A DNA stretch of 38,203 nucleotides from a virus (Duplodnaviria > Caudoviricetes). Positions 10,774-37,487 of the stretch are shown piece by piece (position 1 is the stretch's first letter; each line of letters begins with the position of its first letter). The DNA lies in IMG/VR virus record IMGVR_UViG_3300039208_000182, positions 1 through 38,203 of that record. One strand, written 5' to 3'. A program made the translations under genes and the position numbers. The notes under the pieces were generated by a model that saw nothing but the letters and a program-made list of their open reading frames with translations, did not search any database and had not been told where the DNA came from.

Positions 10774-11326
10774 ATTGTCTAAGATTAGCAGACAAACGCA
10801 GGATCCCGGCAGGTCTTTCGAGAATTTCGTAACTATAGCTGATTACGTCAATGAGATGTATTTTCGCGAATGGCTTGATCCTACACGGTTTACCAGATCG
10901 GGTGGTAGTGAAGCCCAGCGAAATGAAACATCGGCTATCACTTTTCCAAATGCTTCAACTACATCGAATATAGCTAATTTTGTTAACAAGGATCTGTGGC
11001 GTAGTGGGTATTTCTCTGTTAAAATTTTCTACTCGACGGGAGCCACTACGAACGATATTCTTTTCCGCAGTACTATTAGGGGTTTTAACGAAGATACTGA
11101 TACTAACGGTACAACAGTTTCAAGCGTAACCTCTATCTTGGCCCCAGCATCGTCCACAGTAAATTACCTAGAGATTGTGTCAATCGAGGATACGGATAGC
11201 CCTATTAGTGATCATTATGATATGTATTCTTTAGAGTTAGAGAGAATTGGTGGCGACCCGGCGGATACTTACGGATTCAATGCTTTTGTACATGGAGTAT
11301 TAGTTGAATTCCATCCCACAACCTAG
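10751..11326 (+). CDS. Putative tail structural/adaptor protein
   Basis: Overlaps the tail hub gene end; Ser/Thr-rich beta composition with C-terminal LER...DPADTY...A.V.GV. Confidence 0.45.
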   Translation: MKKQENDRLSKISRQTQDPGRSFENFVTIADYVNEMYFREWLDPTRFTRSGGSEAQRNETSAITFPNASTTSNIANFVNKDLWRSGYFSVKIFYSTGATTNDILFRSTIRGFNEDTDTNGTTVSSVTSILAPASSTVNYLEIVSIEDTDSPISDHYDMYSLELERIGGDPADTYGFNAFVHGVLVEFHPTT

Positions 11327-11720
11327 TCGAGTTCCTAAAGCTGCGATTGAACCCTACTGGGAAGAGTTCTCAGAAGGGCTTCAATCGGCTTTGGACTACA
11401 GCGGCAATTATCGAACCCTGGAGGAAATACGGGAATGTCTCGATGAGGGCCGGATGGTGTTGTGGGTAGTAGAAGGATTAGGTTGTTGTACCACAGAACT
11501 AATGGAAACACCGGAGGGGGTATACTGCAATATCCCTTTCCTTTACAGCAAAGACCCCCGGGTGGATATACATGGACCGCTCTTGGAGTTGCTAGAAGAA
11601 GTAGCACGAGCCGAGGGACTGGTGGGTATTAAATTTATTAGCCAGCGTCCGGGTTATGGTCGTAAGATGAAAAAATATGGGTTTAAGCCTGGGTTTGTGG
11701 AGTATCGTAAGCAGTGGTAA
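11304..11720 (+). CDS. GNAT-fold protein (virion assembly-associated)
   Basis: IRECLDEGRMVLW...LEEVARAEG..GIKF..RPGY.RKMKKYGF; GGAG RBS plus TTG; typical position before the ejection genes. Confidence 0.55.
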   Translation: MNSIPQPSRVPKAAIEPYWEEFSEGLQSALDYSGNYRTLEEIRECLDEGRMVLWVVEGLGCCTTELMETPEGVYCNIPFLYSKDPRVDIHGPLLELLEEVARAEGLVGIKFISQRPGYGRKMKKYGFKPGFVEYRKQW

Positions 11721-12154
11721 TACGTGAATTAACGGTGGAGGAAGTCCCCCAGTGCGAGGAAATAGGAAGGCTATTTTACGCAGAGGGAACCATCCCAGGT
11801 GAGTTCAATCCAGAGGTATTTAATTCTAACTGGAAAAATTTAATAGACAATAACGTAGGTACTATTCTTGGAGCTTGGAAGAATAATCGTCTTATCGGAG
11901 TCCTAGGAGGAGTTTTGGCCCCGGATGTCAACGATGGGCAATTAGTGGCGAATGAGATGTTTTGGTTTATGCTCCCCGATAGTAGAGGTGGGGGTATCAG
12001 GTTACTAAAGAGTTACATGAAGCTCATGAAATCTAGGGGAGCCAAGAGGATTACCATGGTACATCTGGCAGACGGCATGGGAAATAGGGTAAAAAAATTA
12101 TACACCCGATTAGGGTTAGAACCCGTAGAAACTCATTATAAGGGAATTTTATGA
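11714..12154 (+). CDS. GNAT family N-acetyltransferase
   Basis: MVIREL start, E.FWFMLPDSRGGG.RLL acetyl-CoA loop, LY.RLG motif. Confidence 0.8.
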   Translation: MVIRELTVEEVPQCEEIGRLFYAEGTIPGEFNPEVFNSNWKNLIDNNVGTILGAWKNNRLIGVLGGVLAPDVNDGQLVANEMFWFMLPDSRGGGIRLLKSYMKLMKSRGAKRITMVHLADGMGNRVKKLYTRLGLEPVETHYKGIL

Positions 12155-12720
12155 TTTTAGTTATGGATAACGTAGTCCCTAGTAATGAATTGGACTCCCT
12201 GCGCCAGGACGCTTTAGCGCAAAATTTTAATGATGTGGAGTATGATAGCCATATTTTTCCAGGTATAGGAACAGCGTTACCCTTTAGTAAAATGGAGGCT
12301 ACTGTCTCCCAACTTGTTGGATCTCCCATTGAAGTAGAAATGTCATTTTGGAAAATGGGATTAGCAGGGGAAAATGCTCCTACGTGGATTCATGCGGATT
12401 CAGGTTGTTCCCAGCTGGCGGCCATTTATTATTTGTCTGACAGTCCCGGTGGAACCGCATTCTGGAAACACAAAGAAACAGGGTGGCTAGAAATCCCTAA
12501 AGAGACAGATAATGCTATGGAAGTGGCTGACTTACTGCACCGGGATACCCACAATGAAGCAGCTTGGGAACAAACAGATTTTATCAAAGGGTTTAAAAAC
12601 AGACTAGTTATTTATTCCTCAAAGGTTTTTCACAGTAGATATCCTCAAGAAGAAAAAGCCACAACAAAAGAAGATGGGCGTTTAACTTGGGTATGTTTTT
12701 TTAATGTAAGGGGGTCGTAG
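12151..12720 (+). CDS. 2OG-Fe(II) oxygenase superfamily protein (DUF6445-like)
   Basis: IHAD (HxD)...AAIYYLS...GGTAFWKH...NRLVIY....FHS...RL..V.FF. Confidence 0.8.
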   Translation: MILVMDNVVPSNELDSLRQDALAQNFNDVEYDSHIFPGIGTALPFSKMEATVSQLVGSPIEVEMSFWKMGLAGENAPTWIHADSGCSQLAAIYYLSDSPGGTAFWKHKETGWLEIPKETDNAMEVADLLHRDTHNEAAWEQTDFIKGFKNRLVIYSSKVFHSRYPQEEKATTKEDGRLTWVCFFNVRGS

Positions 12721-12721
12721 A

Positions 12722-13825
12722 ATGGCCGCAGTAACAGGAGCCGTAGTTGCCGGGCTTGGGTCCGCCTACGGCGCATACAGTCAAAGTAAAGCCGCTAAGA
12801 AGGGGTCTAAAAGTACTTCTTACTTAGAACCCTACGGTGGCGCTAAGGGCACTTCTTATTTAAACACATTATTGGATAAAGGGAATGACCTTTATTTTAA
12901 CACACCGAACCCCGATATTGGCCCCAGTGACGAAATGCGCCGATTGTATGGTGAATTAAGTGGACTAGTTGGTGGTAGTGGTCAAAATGGTGGAGGGGGT
13001 TATAGTTATACCGGCGGTGGTTCATCCGGCGGGGGAAGCTCCTCCAGTAGTGGACGACCTGGTGGGGGTAATGGCAACTTCATGAACACCCAACAACTCG
13101 GGGATTACCTAGGCAATTATTCCGTTGAACCTAACCAGTGGATGCGGGAAGTGCTGGATGGTAAGTTCTTAGATCAGGGTAATCCTTACGTGCAATCCTT
13201 GGTAGATGAATCTTATGAGGACTATCAGCGATCACTAGGAGACATTGATTCCCGTTTTGCTACCAGTGGACGATTCGGCAGTGGTGCTTTGGCAAGGGCT
13301 CACGTATTAGCCAATGAGGAATTCAATGAGGGAGCCCAGCAATTACGGGGCAGTCTCTACGAAAACGAGCGCAACCGCATGATGGATGCGATGGGGATGC
13401 TCTCGGGTGAAAATACCTCAGCCCGTAGTACACTGGGGGGGACCAACCAGTCCTTAATTGCCCGAAGTGGTCAGTTGGGATCTGCCAAGATAGCAGCCGA
13501 TGCTCAACGGGCAGCCGCTAGTATGGCCTTGCGTGGTCAGATGGCTCGACTGGGATTTGACCGGGATCAAGCTAAGTTCGGTAATATGATGCAACTTATG
13601 GGTGTTGCCGAGGGAATGAATACTCTGGAGAATAAGAATGAACTACTCCCCTACGAGATGCTCAATCAAGCTCAGCAGTTTGGCCTACCCATCCTAAGCA
13701 CATTCGGCACCCAGCATGGAAAATCGACCCAGCCTTACGCCGGTAATCCTTGGATTAATGCTGGTATTTCCGGACTGGGGGGTTATCTCGGGGCCGGTGG
13801 AACTTTCGGTGGAGGAGGTAGTTAA
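12722..13825 (+). CDS. Putative DNA ejection/pilot protein
   Basis: Gly/Ala/Ser-rich hydrophobic termini, NPY, GRFGSG, Y.NERNRM motifs. Confidence 0.6.
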   Translation: MAAVTGAVVAGLGSAYGAYSQSKAAKKGSKSTSYLEPYGGAKGTSYLNTLLDKGNDLYFNTPNPDIGPSDEMRRLYGELSGLVGGSGQNGGGGYSYTGGGSSGGGSSSSSGRPGGGNGNFMNTQQLGDYLGNYSVEPNQWMREVLDGKFLDQGNPYVQSLVDESYEDYQRSLGDIDSRFATSGRFGSGALARAHVLANEEFNEGAQQLRGSLYENERNRMMDAMGMLSGENTSARSTLGGTNQSLIARSGQLGSAKIAADAQRAAASMALRGQMARLGFDRDQAKFGNMMQLMGVAEGMNTLENKNELLPYEMLNQAQQFGLPILSTFGTQHGKSTQPYAGNPWINAGISGLGGYLGAGGTFGGGGS

Positions 13826-14742
13826 TGGGATTTCGTAATATGTTTTTTGGGAGCGGCCCCGGCCCTACCTTTGAAGATCCGGATTTGCAGGCTGATTATC
13901 TGCGGCGAATTGGGGCAGCTTTATCCGCCTCAGTCGGCCCTAATGGTATGACAGGTAATATGGCTCAAAACTTGGTAGGGGCCATGGATCAAACGATGGC
14001 ACTAGAGCGTCAGCAACTTCTCGATACCCGGAATCAGGAAATCCAAGATTTGCGCATGGAAGATTATATGAATCGTGGAGAGGCCCAAAAGTTACGTGAG
14101 GAACTACAGCTCCGTCAGTATGAGGATGAGCAGAACGAAATGGCCGGTATTTTAGAAAGAGCTGGTGCCATAGCTAATGAAATGGGCGTAGCGCCCCCTC
14201 AGACGCCCGAGGAGGCAAGTTTATTCATTGACCAATACATACGTAACCAATTTAAAGACCAAGCCCCTGAGCAGCCTGCTGTGCGGGGTGGCACGGTTCA
14301 ATTGCCGGATGGTAGTTTTGGGTTTGTGCGCGAGGATGGTTCAGTGGTTCCGTGGCAAGATGGGGTTGAGCCTTACCACAAGCCTCAGGTTGCCCCTAAT
14401 TTAAATATCCGCACCTACCCCAGCGAACAGGGCCAAATGATTGTACCAGTTAATCCAAAGACGGGAGCCTTGGCTGGTGATGCGCAGTTACTACCTGGTA
14501 GCATGCCGCCGGAGCAAGAAGAGCCGGAAACACCTGACAATAGTGAGATGATTAAGTTAGCCCACCAGTACCGTAAGATGTACATGCAGATTATGGAAAT
14601 GCCTGAAGGTGAAATTCGCAACGGTAAGTTGGCAGAGTTAGAAGCTATGTTTAACTGGCCCGATGGATTTGATCCGATGGATCCGCTTACGTGGGAAGTC
14701 CAATCAGTAGGTGGTAATATCTTTGGTGATTTACTTGAATAA
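13825..14742 (+). CDS. Putative internal virion/ejection protein
   Basis: Translationally coupled (TAATG) at both ends, between ejection-type genes; Q/M/P-rich coiled coil. Confidence 0.5.
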   Translation: MGFRNMFFGSGPGPTFEDPDLQADYLRRIGAALSASVGPNGMTGNMAQNLVGAMDQTMALERQQLLDTRNQEIQDLRMEDYMNRGEAQKLREELQLRQYEDEQNEMAGILERAGAIANEMGVAPPQTPEEASLFIDQYIRNQFKDQAPEQPAVRGGTVQLPDGSFGFVREDGSVVPWQDGVEPYHKPQVAPNLNIRTYPSEQGQMIVPVNPKTGALAGDAQLLPGSMPPEQEEPETPDNSEMIKLAHQYRKMYMQIMEMPEGEIRNGKLAELEAMFNWPDGFDPMDPLTWEVQSVGGNIFGDLLE

Positions 14743-17700
14743 TGTTTGACGCTCGATTTGACACGATCTTGGGTTCGGATTTAAGCCGCAACCTAAGCCA
14801 TCTTCCTGACGATATCCAGGGGAAGATCAGGGAACGTGTACTTAGAGCACATGAGGGCGGAGCGGACAGTGGTCAAATTCAATCCCAATTACGCTCTTTC
14901 CTGGGGCAGTACAAGGATGCCAAAGGATCGGCTGTATCCCGTAAAACTATTCGGTCTAAGACTAGGGATCCTAATTATACCCAGTCTCCGGACGTTCTAG
15001 ATACACCGGATCGCACGTCTAACCTGGGGGATAAAGGTAAGATGTGGCAGGCAGCTGCTTCTAACCTTGTTAATATTCCTCGGGATCTTATTGACGTAGC
15101 AGCTTTGGGGCATCGGTACCTAAACCCCGCTGGTTGGATACAGGGGGACAAGGTATTTGACGATACTGCTAAACTGCACGATGCCATTGACAAGGCAGTC
15201 CCTATCTATAATGACCTGGGGGAAGCTCGGGAAGTAGCTCGGGAAGATTATCTGGCCACGGCTAATAGTCCCAGTGCAGCCCGCAAAGCTTTATTCGCAG
15301 CTGAATTACTAGAGCCTACTTCCAATAACCCAGCGGGCCTAGCCAGATTAGCTGGTAAAATGGCTTTAGTTGGAACTGGTGCTTATGGTGCCCGTAAGTT
15401 GGGGCGTAAAATTGGTAGGGCAACGGCACCAACGTTAGACGATACTTCCCGTCAAACGATGCGGCGTAGTATTAGTGGTGCCGATACCCAGGCTTACGAC
15501 GAGCTGGCAGCTTCCCTGCGCGAAAAGGCAGAACTTAAGAACGCTGAACTTCGCATGCAGGAAGAGGATTTGTTAACTGATCCGGACTACATGCAGGCAC
15601 ACGATACTCTATACCAGGAAATACCAGTCAAGAAAGATAAGCTTAAGTCCCTCCTTAAAAGAGCAGAACGTACTGAGGATCCTATTAAGAAAGAAAGGGT
15701 TTTCAACAGAACAGTTCGACTAGAGACTAAGGTGGCCGATACCGAGAACGCGGCCATTGATGTGCTAGTAGATAAGTCCAAAGGGTTAGAAGAATCCCAG
15801 GAATTCATAACCGCCCTGGATAGAAAGGCTTCTATTCTAGAGGGACGGGCTCGTGAGATTAACGCGGCTCGTGAAAAGTATGGCGTATACCTGGATGAAG
15901 CTAAATTTACGCAGGCAGAATTAGCCACGGCCAATGGGTTGCGTGAGGCAGAGAACGCCCGCCAGCTTTATCATTTCCTGCCCGAGGATGAATTTAAGTC
16001 CACGGCGGACATGATTAAGGGAATAGCAGCTCGTGAAGCTAAAGAAACCCCTGCCCTGGGGAAGTCAGAGCAAGGGTTCGATAAATTCTACCAGTTCTTA
16101 AAGAAGAATTTCGGGAGTCGACGAGGGCTGCCCGAGGATGTCTTTATGTCCAAAATTAAAGCCGACCAGGAACCTATCCTGGGGGCTTATCAAATGCGGC
16201 AAAAGGCAGAGGCTATTAAGGAGCTGGTGGAGCGCAAATACGGGGATATAGAGCTTTACGACCAGGTAGATAATCTATTAACCGCCAAAGAGGCTAGGCT
16301 TCCAGGGGATGTCCACGCCATAGCTCAATCTATGCGTGACGATTTAGATAATCTGTCCATGCAGCTATTGGATAACCCCAGCCTGCAGAATGCCAGCCCT
16401 GATCTGCGGCAAAAGCTTTCAGACAATCTTGGTAAGTACTTGCACCGGGATTACGCGGTCATTGAAAATCCGTTCTGGCAGAAGGACGTATCACCGGAAA
16501 TTGTCGGCAAGGCCAAGGAGTTCCTCAAAAGGGACTACGATCTAACCGATGACCAGATCGAAGGTATTATCCGGGCCAGTACTACCCAAAAGAACAATCC
16601 ACTGCTGGTGCTTAATGCCAACAAAGTTAGTTCTACGGGTAGGCGTGTGCTCAGAGCCCGCAAGAACGTACCACCAGCGATGCGTGCCCTACTGGGGGAA
16701 CATACTGATCCTTTTCACAAGGCAGTGCGGTCCTCCTACTATATGCATTCATTGGCAGCGGAAATGGATTTTAACCAGAAATTAGGCCCCATGCTAGCGG
16801 AGCAAGGGCTTGGTGTCGCGAGCCCCATTGCTACCGGCAAGTTCACCAGGGAGTTACCCAATTCCCCTGGGTTCTTCGTATCCGACGACATCGCGGACAT
16901 TCTGGAAGAGCAGACTAAGCTCAAGGCCAATAGCTTTAGCCTTATGCTTAATGGTTTAACCAAAGCACACAATACCGTCCTCAGTCCTACTACCCACGTT
17001 AAGAATTTTATCTCTAACGGTTGGGTGGCTATGGCGTTAGGGCATATCCCCAATGTTATTGATCCAATCGGGCGTAAGGGAGCAAGAGCACTACGCACTG
17101 AAAAGGCAGCCAGTCCCGAGATTACCCAAATGGTAGAGGAGCTTATTCAAGAGGGTGCCCTGGGCACTAACGTAGATGTAGGTGATTTACTAGAGTTTGA
17201 AAACTCTATGAATTATTACATGCGCAAAGCCACTGGCAAAAAGGTATCGGAAAAATACGAAAAGCTAATGGATTTTGGAACCAAGTGGTATCTCACAGGA
17301 GATAACTACTGGAAGGTTAGTATCTATAACAAGGAAATTAAGCAATACACCAAAGCGCTAATGGATTCCGGCATGACCCGATCCGCAGCCGAGACTGAGG
17401 CTAAGAAAAGAGCTGTTAGGGTGGTTCGGGATGCCACGCAGAACTACAATTTCTTGCCCCGAGTGGGTCGCAAGATCCGTGAAAGCGCCATCATAGGGCC
17501 TTTCGCCAGTTTCCCTATCGAGAGTATGCGCAACTTCCGCAACTTGGTCAACATCATGTATGACGATTTAGCTGACCCTGTTACCCGCAAGATTGGATTG
17601 CGACGGGCAGCTGGTGTTATGGCTTCAGTTACAGCCGAGTACGCGGGCAGTCGTTGGGCTTCAACCTTTACTAACGTGGGCCGCAACGTCAACCAAGCGG

Positions 17701-18443
17701 TCGTGCCTTTTTTGCCGGAGTACCACCAGGATGGGGAAATTGTTCCCTACAAGTGGGATCCAACCACTGGCCAGATGGAATACTCCATCATGAGTGATGG
17801 GAATTACTATAATTATCCCATGTCCATAATGCGGTCAGCTACCGCCCCTAGCCAAGACCCAGCTGAATGGGCGGGCAATTTCCTGGGAGCTGTGGCTGGT
17901 GATATAGTGTCGCCCAGTCTTATCCTGGGACCGATATCGGAGTATTGGCAGACAGGGGATATGAAACAAGCCGGTAAGAAACTGGTTAAGAACGTAACAC
18001 CGGGACTAGTGCGTGATCCCTTGGAAGCAGCTAGGGCAGCCGACGTACCCGGCGTAAGTAGAATTATAGGGCCTACCCCTGTAAGCCGGGCGGATCGTAC
18101 TGCCATCGAGCAGCTAGGGGGTAAGGCCGTAGGTGTCCAGCGGTACAAGTTGGACATCAAGAAAAGATTCCGAGGGGAGATATCAGAGCTGCGAAGATCT
18201 GCCGATTCCCAAGGGCGGAGGATAGCCGAGTTAACCAACCAGTCGGATAAGTTTGAGGCGCAACGCCAGTATCAAGAGAAGTGGCGGCAGGCGGGGGAAA
18301 GAACCTTATTCTTAATCCAGCAATTACGTAACGCGGGAATTGATGATTATTATATTTCCCAGTGGCTTCCCTCTTATACTAATAACCACAAGATTTACTT
18401 GCTGCAAGGGGAAATTCCCCCAGCACCCGTACCAAAGGAATAA
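14742..18443 (+). CDS. Large internal virion/ejection protein (1233 aa)
   Basis: Large helical protein ending the structural module; YLHRDY, TVLSP.THVKNFISN, D.Y.K...Y, NY..LP...PFASF motifs. Confidence 0.6.
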   Translation: MFDARFDTILGSDLSRNLSHLPDDIQGKIRERVLRAHEGGADSGQIQSQLRSFLGQYKDAKGSAVSRKTIRSKTRDPNYTQSPDVLDTPDRTSNLGDKGKMWQAAASNLVNIPRDLIDVAALGHRYLNPAGWIQGDKVFDDTAKLHDAIDKAVPIYNDLGEAREVAREDYLATANSPSAARKALFAAELLEPTSNNPAGLARLAGKMALVGTGAYGARKLGRKIGRATAPTLDDTSRQTMRRSISGADTQAYDELAASLREKAELKNAELRMQEEDLLTDPDYMQAHDTLYQEIPVKKDKLKSLLKRAERTEDPIKKERVFNRTVRLETKVADTENAAIDVLVDKSKGLEESQEFITALDRKASILEGRAREINAAREKYGVYLDEAKFTQAELATANGLREAENARQLYHFLPEDEFKSTADMIKGIAAREAKETPALGKSEQGFDKFYQFLKKNFGSRRGLPEDVFMSKIKADQEPILGAYQMRQKAEAIKELVERKYGDIELYDQVDNLLTAKEARLPGDVHAIAQSMRDDLDNLSMQLLDNPSLQNASPDLRQKLSDNLGKYLHRDYAVIENPFWQKDVSPEIVGKAKEFLKRDYDLTDDQIEGIIRASTTQKNNPLLVLNANKVSSTGRRVLRARKNVPPAMRALLGEHTDPFHKAVRSSYYMHSLAAEMDFNQKLGPMLAEQGLGVASPIATGKFTRELPNSPGFFVSDDIADILEEQTKLKANSFSLMLNGLTKAHNTVLSPTTHVKNFISNGWVAMALGHIPNVIDPIGRKGARALRTEKAASPEITQMVEELIQEGALGTNVDVGDLLEFENSMNYYMRKATGKKVSEKYEKLMDFGTKWYLTGDNYWKVSIYNKEIKQYTKALMDSGMTRSAAETEAKKRAVRVVRDATQNYNFLPRVGRKIRESAIIGPFASFPIESMRNFRNLVNIMYDDLADPVTRKIGLRRAAGVMASVTAEYAGSRWASTFTNVGRNVNQAVVPFLPEYHQDGEIVPYKWDPTTGQMEYSIMSDGNYYNYPMSIMRSATAPSQDPAEWAGNFLGAVAGDIVSPSLILGPISEYWQTGDMKQAGKKLVKNVTPGLVRDPLEAARAADVPGVSRIIGPTPVSRADRTAIEQLGGKAVGVQRYKLDIKKRFRGEISELRRSADSQGRRIAELTNQSDKFEAQRQYQEKWRQAGERTLFLIQQLRNAGIDDYYISQWLPSYTNNHKIYLLQGEIPPAPVPKE

Positions 18444-18447
18444 GATT

Positions 18448-18714
18448 ATGCCGTCTAATTTTCTACCAGAGGACAAAGAATTGCTGATCCGGATTGATGA
18501 GAGAACACGGAACACCCACGACCATGTTAAAAGCATAGATAAACGTCTCACCAAGCTGGAGGAGAAGGGGGATGCTCGCCTTGAATCCTTGGAAAAGGAT
18601 ATCGAGGGCAAGTACGTTTCCCAAAAAGAATTTATCCCAGTGCGCAACTGGGTCACCGCCATCCTGAGTGCTATTATTACTGGATGGGGTATTGACAAAT
18701 GGCTGGGTAGCTAA
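18448..18714 (+). CDS. Putative holin-like membrane protein
   Basis: ATG 18448; LLIRIDERT coiled coil plus C-terminal TM segment; coupled to the endolysin gene. Confidence 0.5.
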   Translation: MPSNFLPEDKELLIRIDERTRNTHDHVKSIDKRLTKLEEKGDARLESLEKDIEGKYVSQKEFIPVRNWVTAILSAIITGWGIDKWLGS

Positions 18715-19043
18715 TGCTTAAATTCAAGGACAAAACAGTGCGGCTTGATAACCTGCGCCCACAGATGGTGCTGGGTCTAATAGTGATGCGGGACGCTTTG
18801 GCGGAACATGGGTACGACTGTATCGTCACTAGCTGTAATGATGGTCACCACAGCTACACCAGCTTACATTACGCGGGCAGTGCGGTAGATGTGCGCAGCA
18901 AGCACATTGCCTCCAATGAGGAAAAACAGCTAGTACTGGTGGAGGCTCGTAAGGCCCTGCCCCGGCATTTTGATCTTATACTGGAATCCCTAGGTACCCC
19001 CAACGAACATTATCACATGGAGTACCAGCCTAAAAATGACTAA
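18714..19043 (+). CDS. Putative endolysin, peptidase M15-like (LAS-type Zn peptidase)
   Basis: VTS..DG.H...SLHY.G.AVD.R...EHYHMEY (H-x6-D...H zinc ligands). Confidence 0.75.
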   Translation: MLKFKDKTVRLDNLRPQMVLGLIVMRDALAEHGYDCIVTSCNDGHHSYTSLHYAGSAVDVRSKHIASNEEKQLVLVEARKALPRHFDLILESLGTPNEHYHMEYQPKND

Positions 19044-19407
19044 AAAATGGCCATATGTCGTTACTGATCACCAGATCATATTGGATACTCCCATAAAGGG
19101 ACACGCAGGACGGGTTCTACCCTACGTTAGGCTACTCCCCAATGGTCGTATTATTATTAGCAAAGGGTATGCTTGGGATGGGGCTACCTGGGCACCAGAC
19201 TTTAAATGGGTGATGTTCCCATCATTGGTGCATGATGCCTTCTATCAGCTGATGCGCGAGGGAGAAGTGGCCCATCGGGTAAAGAAAGAGGCCGACGAGC
19301 TTTTTTACCAGTTGATGATACAGCGTGGTGCCCCTAAATGGTTAGCAACTATGTACTACTGGGCGGTAAAAAAGCTCGGTGGCCGTGGTTGGATTAATCG
19401 GCAATAA
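19036..19407 (+). CDS. DUF1353-like protein
   Basis: GYAWDGAT...SLVHDAFYQ...ADELF...YWAV. Confidence 0.7.
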   Translation: MTKKWPYVVTDHQIILDTPIKGHAGRVLPYVRLLPNGRIIISKGYAWDGATWAPDFKWVMFPSLVHDAFYQLMREGEVAHRVKKEADELFYQLMIQRGAPKWLATMYYWAVKKLGGRGWINRQ

Positions 19408-19408
19408 A

Positions 19409-19451
19409 TAGCAACCACAAAGGGTTGAAACTACCCTGTTGTGTGTTGTTA
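19409..19451. terminator. Long imperfect hairpin at the convergence of the two transcription units
   Basis: TAGCAAC-CACAA-AGGGT pairs with ACCCT-(G)-TTGTG-(T)-GTTGTTA; no clear poly-U tract. Confidence 0.4.
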
Positions 19452-19613
19452 CTGGTATTCCGGCGTCTTAGTGCTATGTTCTGCTGTCTTAATAATCGCA
19501 GCTCTACCTTACGATCTTCGGGGAAGTCTTTAATGGATTCCTCGAATTTTTCGTTATTATATCGGGCAGCTTCATAAGCAGGGCAGGACCAACGGCAGCC
19601 ATCATTCCCCCAA

Positions 19614-19784
19614 TCATTCTGGTGGTGACTGGCGGCCTAGCATAGACTCCAGACGTCGCCACTGACTCTTGCTTTTTGGGGTTGGGAGCCTTGCAATAGC
19701 TTCTAATAATTTTTCATGTTTTTCCTTGGAACTATCTCTACCATATAAGATCATGCGTGTTTCCTCAATTTTGTCCCTAATCAC
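19614..19784 (-). CDS. Hypothetical protein
   Basis: GGAGG RBS plus GTG at 19784 overlapping the upstream gene end. Confidence 0.45.
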   Translation of the reverse strand: MIRDKIEETRMILYGRDSSKEKHEKLLEAIARLPTPKSKSQWRRLESMLGRQSPPE

Positions 19785-19971
19785 TATCTTCCCTCCCCGC
19801 CTCATACCCGGCGGCGTAACCATCCTCAAAAGAATCCCTGAGGGCGGTACGTATATCATATTCTATTTCAGCAAAAGGAAAAGTATAGTCATAAATATCT
19901 AATTGGGGATTAATGTAAAAAAATCGTTCTTCAATAGTTCTTAAGAGTAATGTTAAATCCTCATTCCACAT
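19777..19971 (-). CDS. Hypothetical protein
   Basis: GGAGG RBS plus ATG 19971; C-terminal FEDGYAAGYEAG repeat. Confidence 0.6.
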   Translation of the reverse strand: MWNEDLTLLLRTIEERFFYINPQLDIYDYTFPFAEIEYDIRTALRDSFEDGYAAGYEAGREDSD

Positions 19972-21175
19972 TCTGCTTCCTCCGCATCCGGTGGTACATT
20001 TCAATGGCCCGCTTTTTGTTACCAGCGACCACGGCTCTAACCGCTGCCATGAAAGCCCCGGCCCCATCCGTTAAACCATCTAATGGTGGTTCAACTGGCG
20101 GCTCAGTAGTAGTCCCCCCATCGTCGTCCTTGGGCTCCTGAGTTGCCGGATCAATCTCCAACCAACCATCCTTCTGCGCCAATCGCCACCAGCTAGCAAC
20201 GTCTGATAGTTTGCGCTCACGTGATTTGTGGACTACCTTGCCGTCCGGTCCATCTGCCGTGGCCCAAATCTGGTTGCCATCTACTCGCACGGTTCCCTTA
20301 GAACCCCTAACGTGCTTGTCATCCTGATACTTAATGGCACTGTATAGGCGGCATACTCCCTTGTTGCCGGAGTCTACCATATTGATGGGGGGTTTAGTGC
20401 TATGGTCCCCGCTGGTACAGACTACCAGGGCATCACCATTCTTGAACTTGATAACGTCGATACCAGACCGGAGCCAATGCTCACTCTTAGCCTTGCCCGG
20501 TACTCTAGGGACTATATCAGAATAAGCAATACTAAGCTCAAATCCAAAATCATTATCGTTGAACTGAAGTTTCTGGTTGCGAAAATTCTTAACTCTTTGA
20601 GCCCCGCCAGTCCGGAAGTGATAACTGGAGACAAGATTTTCCAGCTGCCACCCCAATCCCTGATTAAAAATTCCTCGGGGACCAGCGGTAATCATAAATT
20701 TCTTTTCCTTATGAAACCGTCGACCATCATGGCCAGCCTTGCGGTCCAGAGTATATAACTCTAATGAACGGGGGTTTTCCACCAAAGTACGGTACCCCAG
20801 CTCATCAAAGAATGCTAGGAATTCCACGGCTTCTTCCTGCACATCCTTGGGACCATACCGATACATCATTCCCACACAGAAACACGTTAGTAACCAATAC
20901 AGCGGCCCCCACTCACTAAGCCCAGCCCTCTTGTGAACCTCAAAGAATTCCCGTGACTGGGACCAATCCCCCATTACCACACCAGCCGCCGCTGCCTTTA
21001 CCGCCGCGTGATTATTAGATCCATGCTTCCCCAAGGGAGGCTTAGTCACTGGTCGGGCAGCTTTCTCTGCTTCCTCTGTTAACTTGGATTTGGGATAGTT
21101 GTGTACATTATACTCCGGGTTGTCCCGCTGCACTATGTACAGTAATGCGCGGGCAGCTTTTTCTGTTCCAGCCAT
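19961..21175 (-). CDS. Hypothetical protein (404 aa), possibly polysaccharide-lyase-like
   Basis: GGAG RBS; helical N-terminal half with GSNNH and SEWGPLYW, beta-rich second half, TTTEPPVEPP linker; function speculative. Confidence 0.55.
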   Translation of the reverse strand: MAGTEKAARALLYIVQRDNPEYNVHNYPKSKLTEEAEKAARPVTKPPLGKHGSNNHAAVKAAAAGVVMGDWSQSREFFEVHKRAGLSEWGPLYWLLTCFCVGMMYRYGPKDVQEEAVEFLAFFDELGYRTLVENPRSLELYTLDRKAGHDGRRFHKEKKFMITAGPRGIFNQGLGWQLENLVSSYHFRTGGAQRVKNFRNQKLQFNDNDFGFELSIAYSDIVPRVPGKAKSEHWLRSGIDVIKFKNGDALVVCTSGDHSTKPPINMVDSGNKGVCRLYSAIKYQDDKHVRGSKGTVRVDGNQIWATADGPDGKVVHKSRERKLSDVASWWRLAQKDGWLEIDPATQEPKDDDGGTTTEPPVEPPLDGLTDGAGAFMAAVRAVVAGNKKRAIEMYHRMRRKQNVE

Positions 21176-21177
21176 AT

Positions 21178-21876
21178 TTAGTTCTCCACTTTAATTTCGT
21201 CAGTATAAGCTGCATTTGAGCCCCAAGAATAGAGCGCAACGGTGCCTGTAGTGTGGGCTGTATCGGTCACTGTCCCAAAGCAATCTGTGCCGTCAATAGA
21301 CACAGTAAAGTCATCACCTGAAACAGTAACTATCCATTCATACCAAGCATCATCGGTATAAGCCCCGTTACACTGGGCGGATACTGAATCAACCGCCAAT
21401 TCTGTAGCAACACCACCGTCTCGTTTAATTAAAATACAACCATTACGCTGATCGTCGCAGTCTACCCGGTAGTTATTATCTTTATCTGTGTAGCGCCACG
21501 CTAACCCAATACCATCATCATCAGTATTTCTCATCCACGCAGTAATAGTGTAATCAGTCCAGCTTTGAGCCGCCACGTCGTCCCAATAAAAATAGGTTCC
21601 TAACCTACCGGCTGGTGGGGGAGCCGATGACGTACCACCAAAACAATTGCTGTTTTCCCTGGCATGGCCTGTCCTACCGGCAAGCGCACCAGTGGCAACA
21701 GTCCAAGCTGATGGAGCACTAATGTCACAGTTATCAGCCTTAGTCCAACCAGTAACATCACTAGTAAAGTAGTCCTCCATCAGGAGTGTTGGTGCAGATG
21801 CAGTCCGCCTTACTATTACCTGCCCATCCAGGGGCAGGGCTAGTAAAAGAAATCCTGCCAGCAGCTTCTTAATCAT
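21178..21876 (-). CDS. Secreted lectin-like (concanavalin/DUF1080-type beta-sandwich) protein
   Basis: ATG 21876 with GGAG RBS; signal peptide MIKKLLAGFLLLALPLDG|Q; WTDYT...DDDGIGL.WRY.D.DNNYR...G.VALYSW; 6 Cys. Confidence 0.7.
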   Translation of the reverse strand: MIKKLLAGFLLLALPLDGQVIVRRTASAPTLLMEDYFTSDVTGWTKADNCDISAPSAWTVATGALAGRTGHARENSNCFGGTSSAPPPAGRLGTYFYWDDVAAQSWTDYTITAWMRNTDDDGIGLAWRYTDKDNNYRVDCDDQRNGCILIKRDGGVATELAVDSVSAQCNGAYTDDAWYEWIVTVSGDDFTVSIDGTDCFGTVTDTAHTTGTVALYSWGSNAAYTDEIKVEN

Positions 21877-22714
21877 AAGTGTACTCCATACAGATGGCAA
21901 TGGCGTCCACGGATCCTGTGACTGTACCAAAGTCTAAGTCTAACCTGTCACCATCGGCAAAAGTAGTATCCCCCGCGAACGTGCTATCCGTCACTCCGGC
22001 GGTAGTACATGTAATATTGCTACCGTTAACTCCTGTGGCGGTTCCATCATCTACTTCAATGTCCAGCGCCACTGACGTACCACCAGTTGCCTCACAATAA
22101 ATCTCCGTTGCCGTAACCGCTGCCGGTGCTCGCCACAGCGTTAAGAATTCCTCATCCGTAACTGGGTCTTCTACGTAAAAACAAATTGAGTGGGTAGGAA
22201 GTGTAGTATGTGCCCCATCTGCAATAGATGTCCCTAACTGGGTATTAAGCTCTGATAGGCTGTCAAGTTCCGTTTCCTCAATAGGGTCAAACGAAGTCAT
22301 AGCCGTTGTTACACTGGAGCAAGTGGGGGCTGCCTCATCCGTTAAGGCTGTTACCACTTGGTTTGTGCAACTTCCTACACCAGAATAACTGGAGGCAGCA
22401 TCATGCCCGGCCCATAACTCCGACAAACTTAATCGCTCATTGGTCCCACCACCACACTGGGCGGTTACAATTTCATCAGTGCCAGCTGCCGTGGTTTCAT
22501 TGGTAAGGTTACAAATAGTGCTATCCTGCCCAAAAGCCGAACTACCACCCCACGCCAACCCACCAACCAGCAAAATAATTTTTAACCACCTAGGAACCAT
22601 TTTAACTTTCTCCCACAATCCTCGGGGGCGAGCCTGGAGCAGTAAGTAGTACAAGTGACTTTGGGCGTCCGGGCTCTTCCCTCCTTTTACTTTAAATGTC
22701 CAACCTTCTTTCAT
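21869..22714 (-). CDS. Tail-fibre-like protein with signal peptide
   Basis: GGAGG RBS, TAATG-coupled ATG 22714 (alternative ATG 22600); RWLKIILLVGGLAWGGSSAFG|Q then DSTI.NLT..T.AAGTDEI...G.TN.R.SLSEL; C-terminal GDRLDLD domain; 8 Cys. Confidence 0.6.
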   Translation of the reverse strand: MKEGWTFKVKGGKSPDAQSHLYYLLLQARPRGLWEKVKMVPRWLKIILLVGGLAWGGSSAFGQDSTICNLTNETTAAGTDEIVTAQCGGGTNERLSLSELWAGHDAASSYSGVGSCTNQVVTALTDEAAPTCSSVTTAMTSFDPIEETELDSLSELNTQLGTSIADGAHTTLPTHSICFYVEDPVTDEEFLTLWRAPAAVTATEIYCEATGGTSVALDIEVDDGTATGVNGSNITCTTAGVTDSTFAGDTTFADGDRLDLDFGTVTGSVDAIAICMEYTYD

Positions 22715-22869
22715 TATGCCTCCAGTATTATCTTGGAACCGTCCTCTAGTAGGATGAAACCTGATCCATCTTCTAACAATAGGAAGTCTGGATCCCCTGA
22801 CGGCTGTTGGCCAGTAGGGTTGCCAAAAGGCAGCCCCATTCCCATCCCTAGTACACCGCCGTTTTTCAT
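22714..22869 (-). CDS. Small protein (51 aa) with LLEDGS repeats
   Basis: MKNGGVLGMGMGLPFGNPTGQQPSGDPDFLLLEDGSGFILLEDGSKIILEA; ATGA and TAATG overlaps; AGGAG/AAGGA RBS; absent from the ORF track. Confidence 0.75.
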   Translation of the reverse strand: MKNGGVLGMGMGLPFGNPTGQQPSGDPDFLLLEDGSGFILLEDGSKIILEA

Positions 22870-23105
22870 AACAATCCTTCTCCTCTCCGGATGCGGAAAA
22901 TCTCTTCACAGGTTTTGCATCCTGACCGAGTGGGGCCGACTCCGTTGTACTGGGGGTGATGGGGACAGGGTTCAATGTCGATTTCTCTGGCCGAATTTTC
23001 AAGAGCATCTGCCAGCCGCATAGAGCAAGTAGCGCATTTAACGTACTCCGTTTTCTCGGGCACAGTGAGTAGTGTCCCGCATCCAATACAACTTAGTTTC
23101 TTCAT
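22866..23105 (-). CDS. Small Zn-finger protein
   Basis: CIGC...CATC...CPHH...CKTC; ATGA coupling. Confidence 0.65.
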   Translation of the reverse strand: MKKLSCIGCGTLLTVPEKTEYVKCATCSMRLADALENSAREIDIEPCPHHPQYNGVGPTRSGCKTCEEIFRIRRGEGLL

Positions 23106-23233
23106 TCCCCCAGTATTTCGTCTATAATCTTATCCGCGATTTCTTCCGCCAACCAAGGATCAATCGTAATCCCGGCCTCCGTTAAAATTACATCGACAAT
23201 ACGCTCCTTTAGCGTGCCCTCATAATCGTTCAT
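23102..23233 (-). CDS. Hypothetical protein (43 aa)
   Basis: GGAGG RBS, TAATG and ATGA overlaps; MNDYEGTLKERIVDVILTEAGITIDPWLAEEIADKIIDEILGE. Confidence 0.6.
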   Translation of the reverse strand: MNDYEGTLKERIVDVILTEAGITIDPWLAEEIADKIIDEILGE

Positions 23234-23664
23234 TAATCCTCCACCAAGCTAAGAAAATCCTTACAATCCTTTATATGGTTTTCTACTTGATCTTCTAGTA
23301 ATTTAATAGCCTCCACTTTTTGATCTAATAATTCTTTTCTAGAGTAGGGAACTGATGGTTGTAGTAATTCCCCCGGCTCATCGTAAAAATAAGCTCTTTC
23401 CTTGGGATCCCAGTAAATAAGATGCGGGTCATCTTCCATCATTTCAAGAATTTCAGAAATAGAATTTATTTTAACTGGTGTGGGATCCCCAAAAATAGCA
23501 GGTTTTTTAGTACGAGAAAACCTAACACTCCATAGAAACTCCCTCGTATTTTTTCCTTTTAAGGAAATTACAAATCCTATAGAATTACCATAATCAAATT
23601 CATGTTCCACAATAATTGCATTGGGAAACTTCACACTTTTTAATTCAGACCCGGTAAAATTCAA
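23233..23664 (-). CDS. Hypothetical protein
   Basis: 143-aa ORF tiling the operon; TTG start. Confidence 0.6.
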   Translation of the reverse strand: MNFTGSELKSVKFPNAIIVEHEFDYGNSIGFVISLKGKNTREFLWSVRFSRTKKPAIFGDPTPVKINSISEILEMMEDDPHLIYWDPKERAYFYDEPGELLQPSVPYSRKELLDQKVEAIKLLEDQVENHIKDCKDFLSLVED

Positions 23665-24403
23665 CTGCTAAATCTTCTTTGTTCTTGTGGAACACGATCC
23701 GGGGTGAGCCCTGACTGCCGGGCGCGTAATCCTTCTGCTCCCCATAACCATCCTCGTACTCCATGTAATATCCTGTTAGTACGAAATGCTGGGTCGTGGA
23801 TTTAATGGACTTATTGCGCGAGTCATAATACCGCACTGGCATGAATTCGTGCGCCAGGTCATGAACGTGCCCCATGGCGTAAATGTCAGCACCAGGGAAA
23901 ATGTTGCGGAACTTCATAACCGCGTTAATCTTGCCGCCCCTGGTAGCAGCTCCACTACCGCCATGCTTAGCGTACATCAAATATGAAGTATTATCCACAG
24001 AAATGCGCACCACGCCGCCATATCCAAAATATGGCACCCCCAGCTCCCGTGCAAGATTCTTTCCGATATCGATGCCAGTATTCTTGCGAACTCGTTCTTC
24101 ATGGTTCCCCGTAATTGATCCAATGATCTGGTCCTTGTGGGGTTCTAACCACCGCAGCACTTCCTCGTACTGTTCCTGCGGCTGGATGTCTTGCTCGTAT
24201 ACCGAGGCTCCCACGCTATTAGCCAAACCGTAATCGCTTAGATCTCCCATTAGGAGAATCTTATCCCCATTATCCACACTTTTAGCCAGTGTGTCAAGTA
24301 ATCCTGTACTATTATGGCGCTCGTGCCCGATGTGGGTATCCCCGAGTAGAAGTAATCCTTCCCCCTCCTCCAGGTCTAAACTAATTAGTTTAATAGATTT
24401 CAT
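23645..24403 (-). CDS. Calcineurin-like metallophosphoesterase
   Basis: GDTHIG, MGDLSD, GNHE, KHG, MGHVH motifs. Confidence 0.88.
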   Translation of the reverse strand: MKSIKLISLDLEEGEGLLLLGDTHIGHERHNSTGLLDTLAKSVDNGDKILLMGDLSDYGLANSVGASVYEQDIQPQEQYEEVLRWLEPHKDQIIGSITGNHEERVRKNTGIDIGKNLARELGVPYFGYGGVVRISVDNTSYLMYAKHGGSGAATRGGKINAVMKFRNIFPGADIYAMGHVHDLAHEFMPVRYYDSRNKSIKSTTQHFVLTGYYMEYEDGYGEQKDYAPGSQGSPRIVFHKNKEDLAVEFYRV

Positions 24404-34695: not shown

Positions 34696-35697
34696 CTAGT
34701 GAACTGTAACTAACTTACTAGCATAACTTGTTCCGTTATTAGGATGTTCATTACAAACATTACAACATTCTCCTAATACAGAAATATCATCTAAAGGATC
34801 TCCACAACTACCACAAGTAATAGGGATACGACAAGCAGTACAACACCAGTGCGTTGATCCTTTCTTACGTGGTTGATTTTTTGGTATAGCTATTTTCTTA
34901 CCGCAGTTACAACAAGCAATCTTACCCCCCATTTCAGGCCCTCTGATTAAACCTCCCTCAGAATTTTGTTGAAACCTCATATGGGTTAAAGATTTAATAT
35001 CCGCAGTAGGTAAAGCTTTCCTAGTACTTATATCTATAACTTTAGGATCATCATCTACATTCTTTACTGGGGTAGTAGTTTTTTTATTAGATACCCCATA
35101 ATTGTGCCAATCGTTATAACCGGCCCCACCGTAGTACGATCTACGATAGCACTTATAACTGGTATTGCTGTACCAGACACCAGTGCTATCATCTAATTCT
35201 CCCTTCTCCATATTTAGGATGGTGATGCGCCCATCAGAGTCTAAGAAAGCTAACTTATTAAAAGTTAAATCTTTCTTAATAAGACGTTGAACACTATTTC
35301 TTTGGAGTAAGTCAGGGGTTAAGAAAGAAAGATAGTTCTTAGCAAAACTTTCACTATCAGTTGCCCCTTCAATTAAATCAATACCTTTAATGGTCCCATT
35401 ATGGGCCATAATAAGGTCATCCGAAATTTTAAATGGATGACAATTATCCTTATTAATTGCCCCTTCCGTAGCAATCCGGAAATGTAGTATAGCAGGGGTA
35501 TCTTTCTCAGTAAATTGAGTCTTTACGACGTCCTGATAACTAGTTAATAAAGCTTCTGTCGAGAGAAACTTTCTAACTTGAATCTTATCCCCATCATGAA
35601 AAGCATACCCACACCCATCTCCATTATTGTCTCCGCAAATTTGTAGGGTATCCATATCAACTTCAGCCCCAATGGGCTTAGCCACAATGATACACAT
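34696..35697 (-). CDS. Class II (Ntn) glutamine amidotransferase with C-terminal Cys-rich extension
   Basis: MCII N-terminal nucleophile, N.DG.G, HFRIAT.G, NCHPF, HNG, TDSE, WYSN. Confidence 0.9.
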   Translation of the reverse strand: MCIIVAKPIGAEVDMDTLQICGDNNGDGCGYAFHDGDKIQVRKFLSTEALLTSYQDVVKTQFTEKDTPAILHFRIATEGAINKDNCHPFKISDDLIMAHNGTIKGIDLIEGATDSESFAKNYLSFLTPDLLQRNSVQRLIKKDLTFNKLAFLDSDGRITILNMEKGELDDSTGVWYSNTSYKCYRRSYYGGAGYNDWHNYGVSNKKTTTPVKNVDDDPKVIDISTRKALPTADIKSLTHMRFQQNSEGGLIRGPEMGGKIACCNCGKKIAIPKNQPRKKGSTHWCCTACRIPITCGSCGDPLDDISVLGECCNVCNEHPNNGTSYASKLVTVH

Positions 35698-37299: not shown

Positions 37300-37487
37300 A
37301 TCTCTGCCTCCAGGATGTCGGAATATTCCCCCAATTCATCCTTATATTCTGAGATAATATTATCCAATCTATTGGCCAGACTAAGTTTATATGCGGCTAC
37401 ATCTTGGGTTCGGGCCTGCCCCAAAAAATAACTGCGCAGTTCTGTTAAAAGCTGATACAAAGAAGGTGCTCTAAGATGTTTCTGCAC
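37296..37487 (-). CDS. Hypothetical protein
   Basis: GGAGGT RBS plus GTG 37487. Confidence 0.55.
   Translation of the reverse strand: MQKHLRAPSLYQLLTELRSYFLGQARTQDVAAYKLSLANRLDNIISEYKDELGEYSDILEAEI

What the first reader, a model, noticed from the sequence alone, without database searches (positions are those of the whole stretch)
21178..22869. Tail-fibre/receptor-binding cassette whose proteins carry Sec signal peptides and paired cysteines
Seen: three translationally coupled genes on the replication strand, outside the structural operon, which itself has no recognisable tail fibre. (a) A 51-aa LLEDGS-repeat peptide. (b) A protein in which a hydrophobic signal segment (RWLKIILLVGGLAWGGSSAFG) is followed at once by DSTICNLTNETTAAGTDEIV...GGTNERLSLSEL and which ends in a GDRLDLDF-type beta domain; 8 Cys, none in the leader. 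(c) MIKKLLAGFLLLALPLDG followed by a concanavalin/DUF1080-like domain with 6 Cys. Both predicted cleavage sites are G|Q. From my recall of phage families, the D..I..L...T...GTDE motif normally sits at residue 1 of cytoplasmically assembled tail fibres. Inference: these adhesion proteins are exported, oxidatively folded in the periplasm and added to virions at or after lysis, or are used as secreted receptor-masking decoys. Either route departs from textbook Caudoviricetes assembly.
Basis: partly seen in the sequence, partly recalled or inferred. Interest (0 to 1): 0.82.

Follow-up and report, generated by a model that had tools for sequence, protein, structure and literature searches.

The report
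Exported, disulfide-paired phage fibre cassette
An uncultured short-tailed phage has no recognisable fibre gene in its tail operon but carries a separate cassette whose fibre-like and lectin-like proteins begin with predicted secretion signals and hold paired cysteines, so its host-recognition gear likely folds outside the cytoplasm and would join the particle only at lysis, a route I did not find described for tailed phages.

Summary
Observation essentially confirmed. In a P22-portal podovirus contig, gene b (21869-22600, minus strand) reads: leader, fibre anchor-type domain, short stalk, C-terminal jelly roll. The jelly roll has 1521 relatives at E<=0.001. Of 141 Met-starting top relatives, 115 carry a leader by my heuristic, against 6 of 6850 internal controls (no SignalP available). 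Its four cysteines covary as two pairs. In relatives it mostly lies among phage structural genes, and the next gene usually has a leader too (34 of 42), as lectin-like c does here. Peptide a is an LLEDG-type tag that, in leaderless phages, ends the gene just before 'MADKKISEL'-type fibre genes (16 of 98 versus 0 of 98). b's mature N-terminus matches that anchor. The fibre slot of a syntenic cultured phage is empty here. Export and disulfides are likely (about 0.9). Attachment to virions is inferred (about 0.6); decoy or surface display remains the rival. Corrections: a and b are coupled only via start 22714, and the window is not a whole genome. The scan found the general phenomenon before on other DNA (58 findings).

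The parts
22714..22869 (-). Gene a: 51-aa leaderless, Cys-free peptide ending in three LL-ED-G-type strands; candidate cytoplasm-made docking tag for the fibre anchor
   Evidence: the same motif ends the gene directly upstream of leaderless MADKKISEL-type fibre genes
22601..22714 (-). In-frame 38-codon extension of b, used only if b starts at 22714 (coupled to a); absent in relatives
   Evidence: the public gene call P0001 is the 281-aa form
22529..22600 (-). Predicted Sec leader of b (24 aa from ATG 22600; AFG|Q)
   Evidence: sequence; heuristic; relative P0017 cleaves before the same QDSTI
22400..22528 (-). b mature N-terminal anchor-type domain (MADKKISEL family) with a Cys pair (30, 49)
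   Evidence: leaderless family members hit tail fibre/spike PHROGs and Peptidase_S74, C1q, LamG Pfams
22199..22399 (-). b short stalk with a Cys pair (78, 94); low model confidence
   Evidence: pLDDT 41-56; a similar segment in P0008
21869..22198 (-). b C-terminal jelly-roll domain; Cys140-Cys237 and Cys169-Cys198 covary as pairs; includes stop codon
21823..21876 (-). Predicted Sec leader of c (18 aa; LDG|Q); start overlaps b's stop by 8 nt
21178..21822 (-). Mature c: concanavalin/LamG-like domain (residues 40-224), 6 Cys; candidate adhesin
   Evidence: leader-bearing genes follow the jelly-roll gene in 34 of 42 loci; similar post-leader 'IVIRR' strand in L020 and L057
19961..21175 (-). Gene d: 404-aa leaderless basic orphan starting 2 nt after c; membership of the cassette uncertain
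   Evidence: no family, no relative, no usable fold
22866..23105 (-). Zinc-ribbon gene overlapping a's start; shows that the cassette is embedded in the leftward operon
18440..18450 (+). Empty fibre slot: the 1233-aa ejection-type gene is followed directly by the holin-like/lysis genes
   Evidence: syntenic Paracoccus phage KLEP18-1 has two fibre genes here
19421..19437 (.). Hairpin scored as terminator-like on both strands, between the convergent arms
   Evidence: 5 sites found, 5.0 expected, so weak alone; GC-skew switch

Best explanation
The cassette likely encodes this podovirus's host-recognition fibre: b is predicted to be a short trimeric fibre and c its lectin-like tip, both likely exported by Sec and disulfide-bonded outside the cytoplasm, and they would attach to the cytoplasm-built particle when lysis mixes the compartments. 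Shown: the genes, leaders, cysteine counts, family-wide leaders, cysteine covariation, the a-before-fibre gene grammar and the empty fibre slot. Predicted: cleavage at G|Q (giving N-terminal Gln), the jelly-roll fold, and disulfides Cys140-Cys237 and Cys169-Cys198. Inferred: trimerisation of b; c docking on b's jelly roll; the leaderless tag a, made in the cytoplasm, binding b's freed N-terminal anchor and so bridging fibre and particle; and assembly at lysis.
For: Leader in 115 of 141 Met-starting relatives vs 6 of 6850 internal controls, and in 21 of 26 closed reading frames at genomic loci. Cys columns in 151 of 153 aligned domains: both pairs 87, first pair only 32, second pair only 29, other 3. 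Mature Cys count even in 92 of 114 leader-bearing proteins; the 120 leaderless anchor-domain proteins split 27 even, 52 odd, 41 none, and hold 0.36 vs 1.64 Cys per 100 aa. Domain modelled at pLDDT 96-98. Best solved match is the C-terminal triple-jelly-roll tip of the phage 7-7-1 long tail fibre (Z 9.4, rmsd 3.0, 106 aligned; PMC12796354 passages). BFVD matches are collagen, minor-tail and tail-fibre proteins. 14 of 22 loci scanned have head, portal, terminase or tail PHROG hits on or beside the gene. The next gene has a leader in 34 of 42 loci. The LLEDG motif lies within 300 nt upstream of 16 of 98 leaderless MADKKISEL genes, vs 0 of 98 on the opposite strand and 1 of 254 window stretches, which is gene a; in all 16 it is at or near the C-terminus of a gene stopping -1 to 13 nt from the fibre ATG. 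b's post-leader segment scores 13.9 bits against that profile, and 0 of 2000 shuffles reach it. KLEP18-1 has two leaderless fibres where this operon has none. The closest capsid relative, L206, has a leader-bearing gene inside its structural operon.
Against: No virion proteome, culture or host; no cultured phage in the 50,697-record collection matches b, P0115 or c. Here the cassette lies in the leftward (replication) arm, not the late operon, and no promoter enrichment was seen (5 found, 9.2 expected). The fold match is middling: XepA (Z 9.2), capsid cement proteins (9.0, 8.4, 8.0) and YomS (8.7) tie with or nearly tie the fibre tip. The same jelly roll is also fused to pilin-type leaders at a chromosomal Patescibacteria locus (L062), so the domain is not only viral. 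7 of 22 loci gave no PHROG hit. Only 9 of 115 leader-bearing segments carry the anchor motif at >=5 bits, and an LLEDG motif was found in only 3 of 47 other family loci, one of them doubtful, so the a-tag is not general to the family. The anchor similarity is modest (E 0.012). The leader test is a home-made rule with false positives. Related sequences inflate all family counts. Disulfides alone do not imply export: Milano and 7-7-1 virions are disulfide-rich, and the term 'signal peptide' does not occur in either main text.
Confidence: 0.6

Rival explanations
1. b and c are exported but never join the virion. They are made with the replication-arm genes and act on the infected cell's surface or in the periplasm, as receptor-masking or superinfection-exclusion proteins or shed decoys built from fibre parts.
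For: Position in the leftward arm, coupled to a non-structural zinc-ribbon gene. Cells use leader-plus-fibre proteins on their surfaces (Bdellovibrio MAT, PMC10769870 passages), and this jelly roll occurs on pilin-type proteins at a chromosomal locus. The nozzle's unmatched N-terminal part and orphan 10745-11326 could supply adsorption.
Against: In relatives the gene sits among capsid, portal and tail genes (14 of 22 loci). b keeps an anchor-type domain and sits directly behind the tag gene that accompanies such anchors in leaderless phages. The normal fibre slot is empty. No integrase was detected among the 47 proteins scanned, though the window is incomplete.
Confidence: 0.2
2. The proteins are exported virion parts, but head fibres or capsid decoration rather than tail fibres. 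The jelly roll would act as a cement-like base on the capsid, with the N-terminus pointing outward.
For: Cement proteins of Pam1, KHP40 and GP4 score Z 8.0-9.0. In several loci the gene follows the major capsid gene closely (L003, L010, L013, L041, L063), as does the leader-bearing gene of L206.
Against: The domain is always C-terminal behind stalks of 100-1900 aa. The best single match is a tail-fibre tip. Other loci place it after tail genes (L005, L011, L061). b has an anchor-type N-terminus.
Confidence: 0.12
3. The leaders are not cleaved or not used. They act as membrane anchors released at lysis, or the 22714 start yields a cytoplasmic form, and the disulfides form by air oxidation after lysis.
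For: The coupled start 22714 has the stronger SD and buries the hydrophobic stretch at residues 43-62. Disulfide-rich virions exist with no export described.
Against: Relatives have short, classical leaders at the very N-terminus with small-residue cleavage motifs, across very different stalks. The hydrophobic stretches are short (best 19-residue mean hydropathy 1.39 and 1.72). Leaderless anchor-domain fibres are Cys-poor.
Confidence: 0.08

Closest known systems
Leaderless podovirus fibres, e.g. Paracoccus phage KLEP18-1 gp22/gp23 (OM654376.2)
   Same: Same capsid-to-ejection gene order; capsid, nozzle and acetyltransferase-like genes are homologous.
   Different: KLEP18-1 fibres lie in the late operon, have no leader and 0-2 Cys. 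Here that slot is empty and the fibre-like genes are in the other arm, with leaders and 6-8 Cys.
Agrobacterium phage 7-7-1 long tail fibre gp015 (PDB 9rkv; PMC12796354 passages) and Milano (PMC10811340 passages)
   Same: C-terminal jelly-roll tip (Z 9.4); cysteine-rich virions with disulfides.
   Different: Myophages with a beta-helix fibre body; 8% identity; 'signal peptide' occurs 0 times in either main text. Their capsid and sheath disulfides are in cytoplasm-built parts.
Bdellovibrio MAT fibres (PMC10769870 passages)
   Same: Signal peptide followed by phage-fibre-like modules and variable adhesin ends.
   Different: Cellular surface proteins with a conserved ~130-aa domain after the leader, many with S74 chaperones; not phage-encoded. 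No S74 here.
MADKKISEL-type leaderless fibres with an upstream LLEDG-tagged protein (uncultured phages)
   Same: Same anchor-type N-terminus and same tag gene directly upstream.
   Different: No leader (0 of 120, although the query favoured leaderless forms) and few Cys. No solved structure was found by sequence for either part.
Pseudomonas podophage A1002 fibre II gp41 (PMC13730344 passages)
   Same: A virion fibre protein whose first ~30 residues are absent from the cryo-EM map; the authors suggest proteolytic removal. Fibres dock on a peptide-like rope by beta-sheet augmentation.
   Different: The paper's main text never mentions a signal peptide; I could not obtain the sequence, so a leader is untested. 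Dimeric 140-170-aa fibres, no homology shown to b.
Filamentous phage pIII (recalled, from no call)
   Same: Sec-exported, disulfide-bonded receptor-binding virion protein.
   Different: Inoviruses assemble at the membrane without lysis; this phage has terminase, portal and HK97-type capsid genes.
PBSX XepA / SPbeta YomS (PMC6834076 passages)
   Same: Phage jelly-roll proteins (Z 9.2, 8.7); XepA is named 'exported protein'.
   Different: Pentameric lysis-cassette proteins; XepA is absent from mature particles; no stalk or anchor.

Membership tests
Sec/SPI-exported proteins | N-terminal n/h/c leader with small residues at -3/-1 | tested here: met
   Rule-based test passes for b (22600 start) and c; 115 of 141 relatives. 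Not SignalP; fails for the 22714 form.
Sec/SPI-exported proteins | No further transmembrane segment, no lipobox | tested here: met
Sec/SPI-exported proteins | Actual translocation and cleavage | not testable with these tools
   needs fusion assay or N-terminal proteomics
Caudoviricetes tail fibre | N-terminal virion-anchor domain | tested here: inconclusive
   Matches the N-terminal domain of leaderless fibre-annotated proteins, but modestly, and that domain's anchoring role has no solved structure.
Caudoviricetes tail fibre | Stalk plus C-terminal beta-rich tip | tested here: met
Caudoviricetes tail fibre | Homotrimer | not tested
Caudoviricetes tail fibre | Encoded in the late structural module | tested here: not met
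   Not in this window; met in 14 of 22 related loci.
Caudoviricetes tail fibre | Made and folded in the cytoplasm without a leader | tested here: not met
Caudoviricetes tail fibre | Present in the virion | not testable with these tools
   no culture or proteome
ConA-like/LamG clan (protein c) | Pfam match | tested here: met
   PF06439 28.6 bits (cut-off 26.8); PF13385 26.6 bits (just under 27.6)
ConA-like/LamG clan (protein c) | Carbohydrate binding or hydrolysis | not testable with these tools
   no model or assay
Capsid cement/decoration jelly rolls | Stand-alone jelly roll binding capsid | tested here: inconclusive
   Fold ties, but the domain is C-terminal on long stalks.
Bdellovibrio MAT fibres | Chromosomal gene of a predator with a conserved ~130-aa post-leader domain | tested here: not met
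   Phage contig; b's post-leader domain is ~45 aa and of the MADKKISEL type.
Type IV pilin | Class III GFTLxE leader | tested here: not met
   Absent in b and c; present in a few relatives (P0086, P0112, L062).

The most novel reading that the evidence does not exclude
A widespread class of uncultured tailed phages finishes its particle outside the cytoplasm. Fibres and adhesins are stocked, already disulfide-folded, in the periplasm or cell wall space and clip onto heads or tails at lysis. Here a cytoplasm-made LLEDG peptide tag is the latch that catches the exported fibre's anchor, and the C-terminal jelly roll is a universal socket for a separately exported, swappable adhesin.
Probability: 0.35. 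Interest if true: 0.9.

Novelty: new variant of a known kind. Interest (0 to 1): 0.74.

Why it matters
Tailed-phage assembly is taught as wholly cytoplasmic (textbook knowledge), and lack of a signal peptide has been used as a mark of phage origin for ligand-binding proteins (PMC6199706 passage). An exported fibre module would add a second compartment to virion assembly and tie infectivity to host Sec and disulfide machinery and to the lysis step. It could also keep adhesins from binding host glycans or precursors too early. It would explain many 'fibre-less' metagenomic phages, and it marks a 1500-cluster domain family, with no Pfam match for the domain, as an annotation gap. The cassette is small (51, 219 and 214 aa mature), so export, disulfides and a-b and b-c binding can be tested in a laboratory strain without the unknown host.

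Tried and rejected
Complex prediction of three copies of b's N-terminal 47 aa with three copies of a's last 40 aa returned 'no answer' (median 0.31, mark 0.32); it counts neither for nor against binding. Single-sequence fold of b failed (pLDDT 41). PDB sequence searches found nothing useful for the jelly roll, anchor, tag or c. The first 8-sequence anchor profile did not separate b from noise; only the deeper one did. Pfam gave one weak hit among 73 family members, and PHROG hits were confined to a few members, none on b. NCBIfam gave nothing for a-d. No cultured relative of b, c or 10745-11326; hits for a were at chance level. d has no relative or fold. The only near-identical locus is a second assembly of the same phage: 1 internal mismatch over 11.9 kb, plus its primer-like end. 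Promoter and terminator scans showed no enrichment. No lipobox or spanin was found, so host envelope type is unresolved; 'periplasm' is an assumption. Rejected: assembly artefact (second assembly), chance hydrophobic start (controls), leader on the nozzle gene (TTG 8026 is probably not the start; inference). The tree (68 rows, 119 columns) nests pilin-leader forms among phage forms but is unrooted, and L029's N-terminus is missing, so no direction of transfer is claimed. Papers whose passages gave nothing on exported fibres: PMC3556154, PMC11924767, PMC10975493 (only a leader-bearing esterase), PMC13576161, PMC8143477, PMC3483164. No supplements were opened; annotation tables there could note leaders.
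Full report
Setting. The window is one 38,203-nt contig of a podovirus-like phage. The plus arm holds terminase, P22-like portal, major capsid, nozzle-like, acetyltransferase-like and ejection-type genes, then probable lysis genes. The minus arm holds primase, helicase, PolA, SSB, a Cas4-like nuclease, RuvC and a glutamine amidotransferase/amidoligase/ATP-grasp/GGCT module. The arms converge near 19.4 kb. Both ends carry the same 17-nt word in inverted orientation, which I recall as a random-amplification primer. A second assembly extends more than 200 nt further left, so the genome is incomplete. That assembly matches 11871-23715 with one mismatch, which excludes mis-assembly of the cassette. 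The best cultured capsid matches are 36-37% identical (Rhizobium RHph_Y1_10, Paracoccus KLEP18-1); the host is unknown.

Observation. Genes a, b and c are as described; details are under the observation check. b has two plausible starts, both with SD-like sites. Start 22714 is coupled to a, and its -1 overlap is the spacing seen in several leaderless tag-fibre pairs. Start 22600 gives the classical leader seen in relatives. I cannot choose between them; both may be used.

The leader is a family trait. A word search with b found 7 other proteins; six of the seven start with a hydrophobic leader and one is a fragment. A profile of the shared C-terminal domain hit 1521 cluster representatives at E<=0.001, and in the 150 listed the domain lies at or near the C-terminus. 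I scored 153 proteins (146 new listed hits plus P0001-P0007). Of 141 that start with Met, 115 pass a rule-based leader test (b included, through its internal Met), as do 2 of 12 non-Met entries; 6 of 6850 random internal starts pass. At genomic loci (63 examined, 48 distinct), 21 of 26 complete frames pass. The five misses (L002, L011, L012, L050, L062) all show a hydrophobic N-terminal stretch by eye, one of pilin type. The rule is not SignalP and misfires on some true N-termini (2 of 11 Bcep22 and 1 of 18 KLEP18-1 proteins), far below the family rate.

The cysteines are paired. In 151 of 153 domains complete at the four columns, Cys140 and Cys237 are present or absent together in 151 of 151, and Cys169 and Cys198 in 149 of 151. 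The mature Cys count is even in 92 of 114 leader-bearing proteins. In 120 leaderless anchor-domain proteins Cys is rare and parity is not even-biased. The seed profile favoured Cys-bearing hits and the sequences are related, so the p-values are inflated, but the pairing pattern was not selected for. In the model, the four residues lie on or at beta strands, and 140 and 237 are on the domain's first and last strands; distances could not be measured.

b has fibre anatomy. The C-terminal 110 residues fold at pLDDT 96-98, the rest at 41-66. Foldseek found 275 viral models at E<=0.001, the named ones mostly collagen-repeat, minor tail, tail fibre and Mtd-N proteins, and only weak PDB hits, led by Ena pili and a cement protein. 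VIA-align ranked the tip of the 7-7-1 long tail fibre first (Z 9.4), tied within 1 Z with XepA, Pam1 cement, YomS, a KP1 baseplate chain and KHP40 cement. The paper describes that region as a triple jelly roll. So the fold is a generic virion jelly roll, compatible with a fibre tip but not proof of one. For the N-terminus, I built a profile from 186 leaderless MADKKISEL-type starts, excluding the window. b was the top hit of 625 window frames (E 0.012), at its post-leader segment; 0 of 2000 shuffles matched its 13.9 bits; 9 of 115 leader-bearing segments scored >=5 bits vs 7 of 2300 shuffles. Leaderless carriers of this domain hit tail fibre and spike PHROGs and carry S74, C1q or LamG domains. 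The query favoured leaderless forms, so 0 of 120 leaders there is not an unbiased ratio.

Peptide a belongs with that anchor. A search with a gave 19 loci. I inspected 13 of them, leaving out the same-genome locus and five apparent duplicates. In four (L066, L068, L077, L083) the LLEDG gene directly precedes a leaderless anchor-type gene, in two (L081, L082) it follows one closely, one stands alone, and six are internal matches in tail proteins. Starting instead from the anchor, 16 of 98 genes had the motif within 300 nt upstream, vs 0 of 98 on the opposite strand, always at or near the end of the adjacent gene. The motif ends proteins of very different kinds and lengths, as a docking tag would. 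a has no leader and no Cys, so it stays in the cytoplasm while b is exported; if they bind, they can meet only at lysis. Binding is inferred from gene grammar alone. Word and sequence searches of the scan's notes found nothing on this LLEDG tag.

Context. PHROG scans of 67 chosen proteins from 22 loci gave capsid, portal, terminase or tail hits in 14 loci, of podo-, sipho- and myo-like organisation, none in 7, and a cellular locus in one. The downstream gene carries a leader in 34 of 42 loci and varies widely, which suggests that the jelly roll serves as a socket for a swappable exported adhesin, here c (inference). KLEP18-1 shares the window's structural gene order and has two leaderless fibres right after the third ejection protein, where the window passes straight to lysis genes. 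L206, the closest capsid relative (53%), has a 202-aa leader-bearing, two-Cys gene between its head gene and adaptor. Against the virion reading: the cassette here is in the replication arm; the nozzle has about 380 N-terminal residues without a phage match; and the domain also occurs on pilin-leader proteins in a Patescibacteria chromosome.

Mechanism and odds. Export by Sec about 0.9 and disulfide folding about 0.9 (predicted, with strong comparative support). Exported tail fibre plus adhesin joined at lysis 0.6; non-virion surface or decoy role 0.2; exported head fibre or decoration 0.12; leader unused or uncleaved 0.08. The a-latch and c-socket steps are the least certain.

Comparison and novelty. 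It works like a tail fibre with a separate adhesin, but it fails two textbook features (late-operon position in this genome, leaderless cytoplasmic synthesis), so I file it as a variant, not an ordinary member. Nine full-text searches listed no paper on Sec-exported fibres of tailed phages; the library lacks most subscription journals. I read term-matched passages, not whole texts, of 12 papers. Nearest in print are the Bdellovibrio MAT fibres (cellular), the disulfide-rich Milano and 7-7-1 virions (no leaders mentioned), and A1002 gp41, a virion fibre lacking its first ~30 residues (leader untested). Filamentous phage pIII is a recalled precedent outside tailed phages. The scan has noted leader-bearing fibres in at least 58 other genomes; these are unchecked AI notes and are not counted as evidence. 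What this window adds is the Cys-paired jelly-roll family, the LLEDG tag grammar and the relocation out of the late operon.

Verdict. Real, non-random and probably an exported host-recognition module; virion attachment is unproven. New variant of a known kind; interest 0.74.

Noticed in passing
window 1-17 and 38187-38203: Same 17-nt word at both ends in inverted orientation (recalled as an amplification primer); a second assembly runs more than 200 nt further left, so the window is not a full genome.
   Followed up: yes
window 8167-10773 +: Nozzle-like gene (868 aa vs 490 in KLEP18-1) with roughly 330-380 extra N-terminal residues, seemingly two related beta domains, unmatched by cultured phages; possible cytoplasm-made binding domains.
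   Followed up: partly
window 10745-11326 +: 193-aa orphan right after the nozzle, in the position of a needle or knob gene; no hits.
   Followed up: partly
window 19961-21175 -: 404-aa basic orphan coupled to c, with an acidic Pro/Thr linker near its end; no relative or fold.
   Followed up: partly
L062:9191-11612 +; P0086, P0102, P0112: The same Cys-paired jelly roll fused to type IV pilin-like leaders in a Patescibacteria chromosomal locus (P-type ATPase, AsnRS-like, glycosyltransferase neighbours).
   Followed up: partly
L206:5976-6584 +: Leader-bearing 202-aa, two-Cys gene between head gene and adaptor in the closest capsid relative; absent from the window.
   Followed up: partly
L013:6893-7249 and 11888-12139; L063:6167-6508: Split arrangement: a short leaderless MADKKISEL-type gene just before the exported fibre, and an LLKEDG-type peptide gene after the exported adhesin.
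   Followed up: partly
window 34696-37854 -: Glutamine amidotransferase, amidoligase, ATP-grasp and gamma-glutamyl cyclotransferase gene run; recalled as typical of some podoviruses.
   Followed up: no
window 11304-12720 +: Two acetyltransferase-like genes and a DUF6445 gene inside the structural operon.
   Followed up: no
window 24269-24297 -: 11-of-12 sigma-70 consensus inside the phosphoesterase gene, 1.4 kb upstream of a; no enrichment over shuffles overall.
   Followed up: no
window 18448-19407 +: Holin-like gene, Hedgehog-clan peptidase-like gene and DUF1353; no lipobox or spanin found.
   Followed up: partly
PMC13730344 (phage A1002 gp41): Virion fibre lacking its first ~30 residues in cryo-EM; could be a cleaved leader; sequence not obtainable here.
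   Followed up: partly
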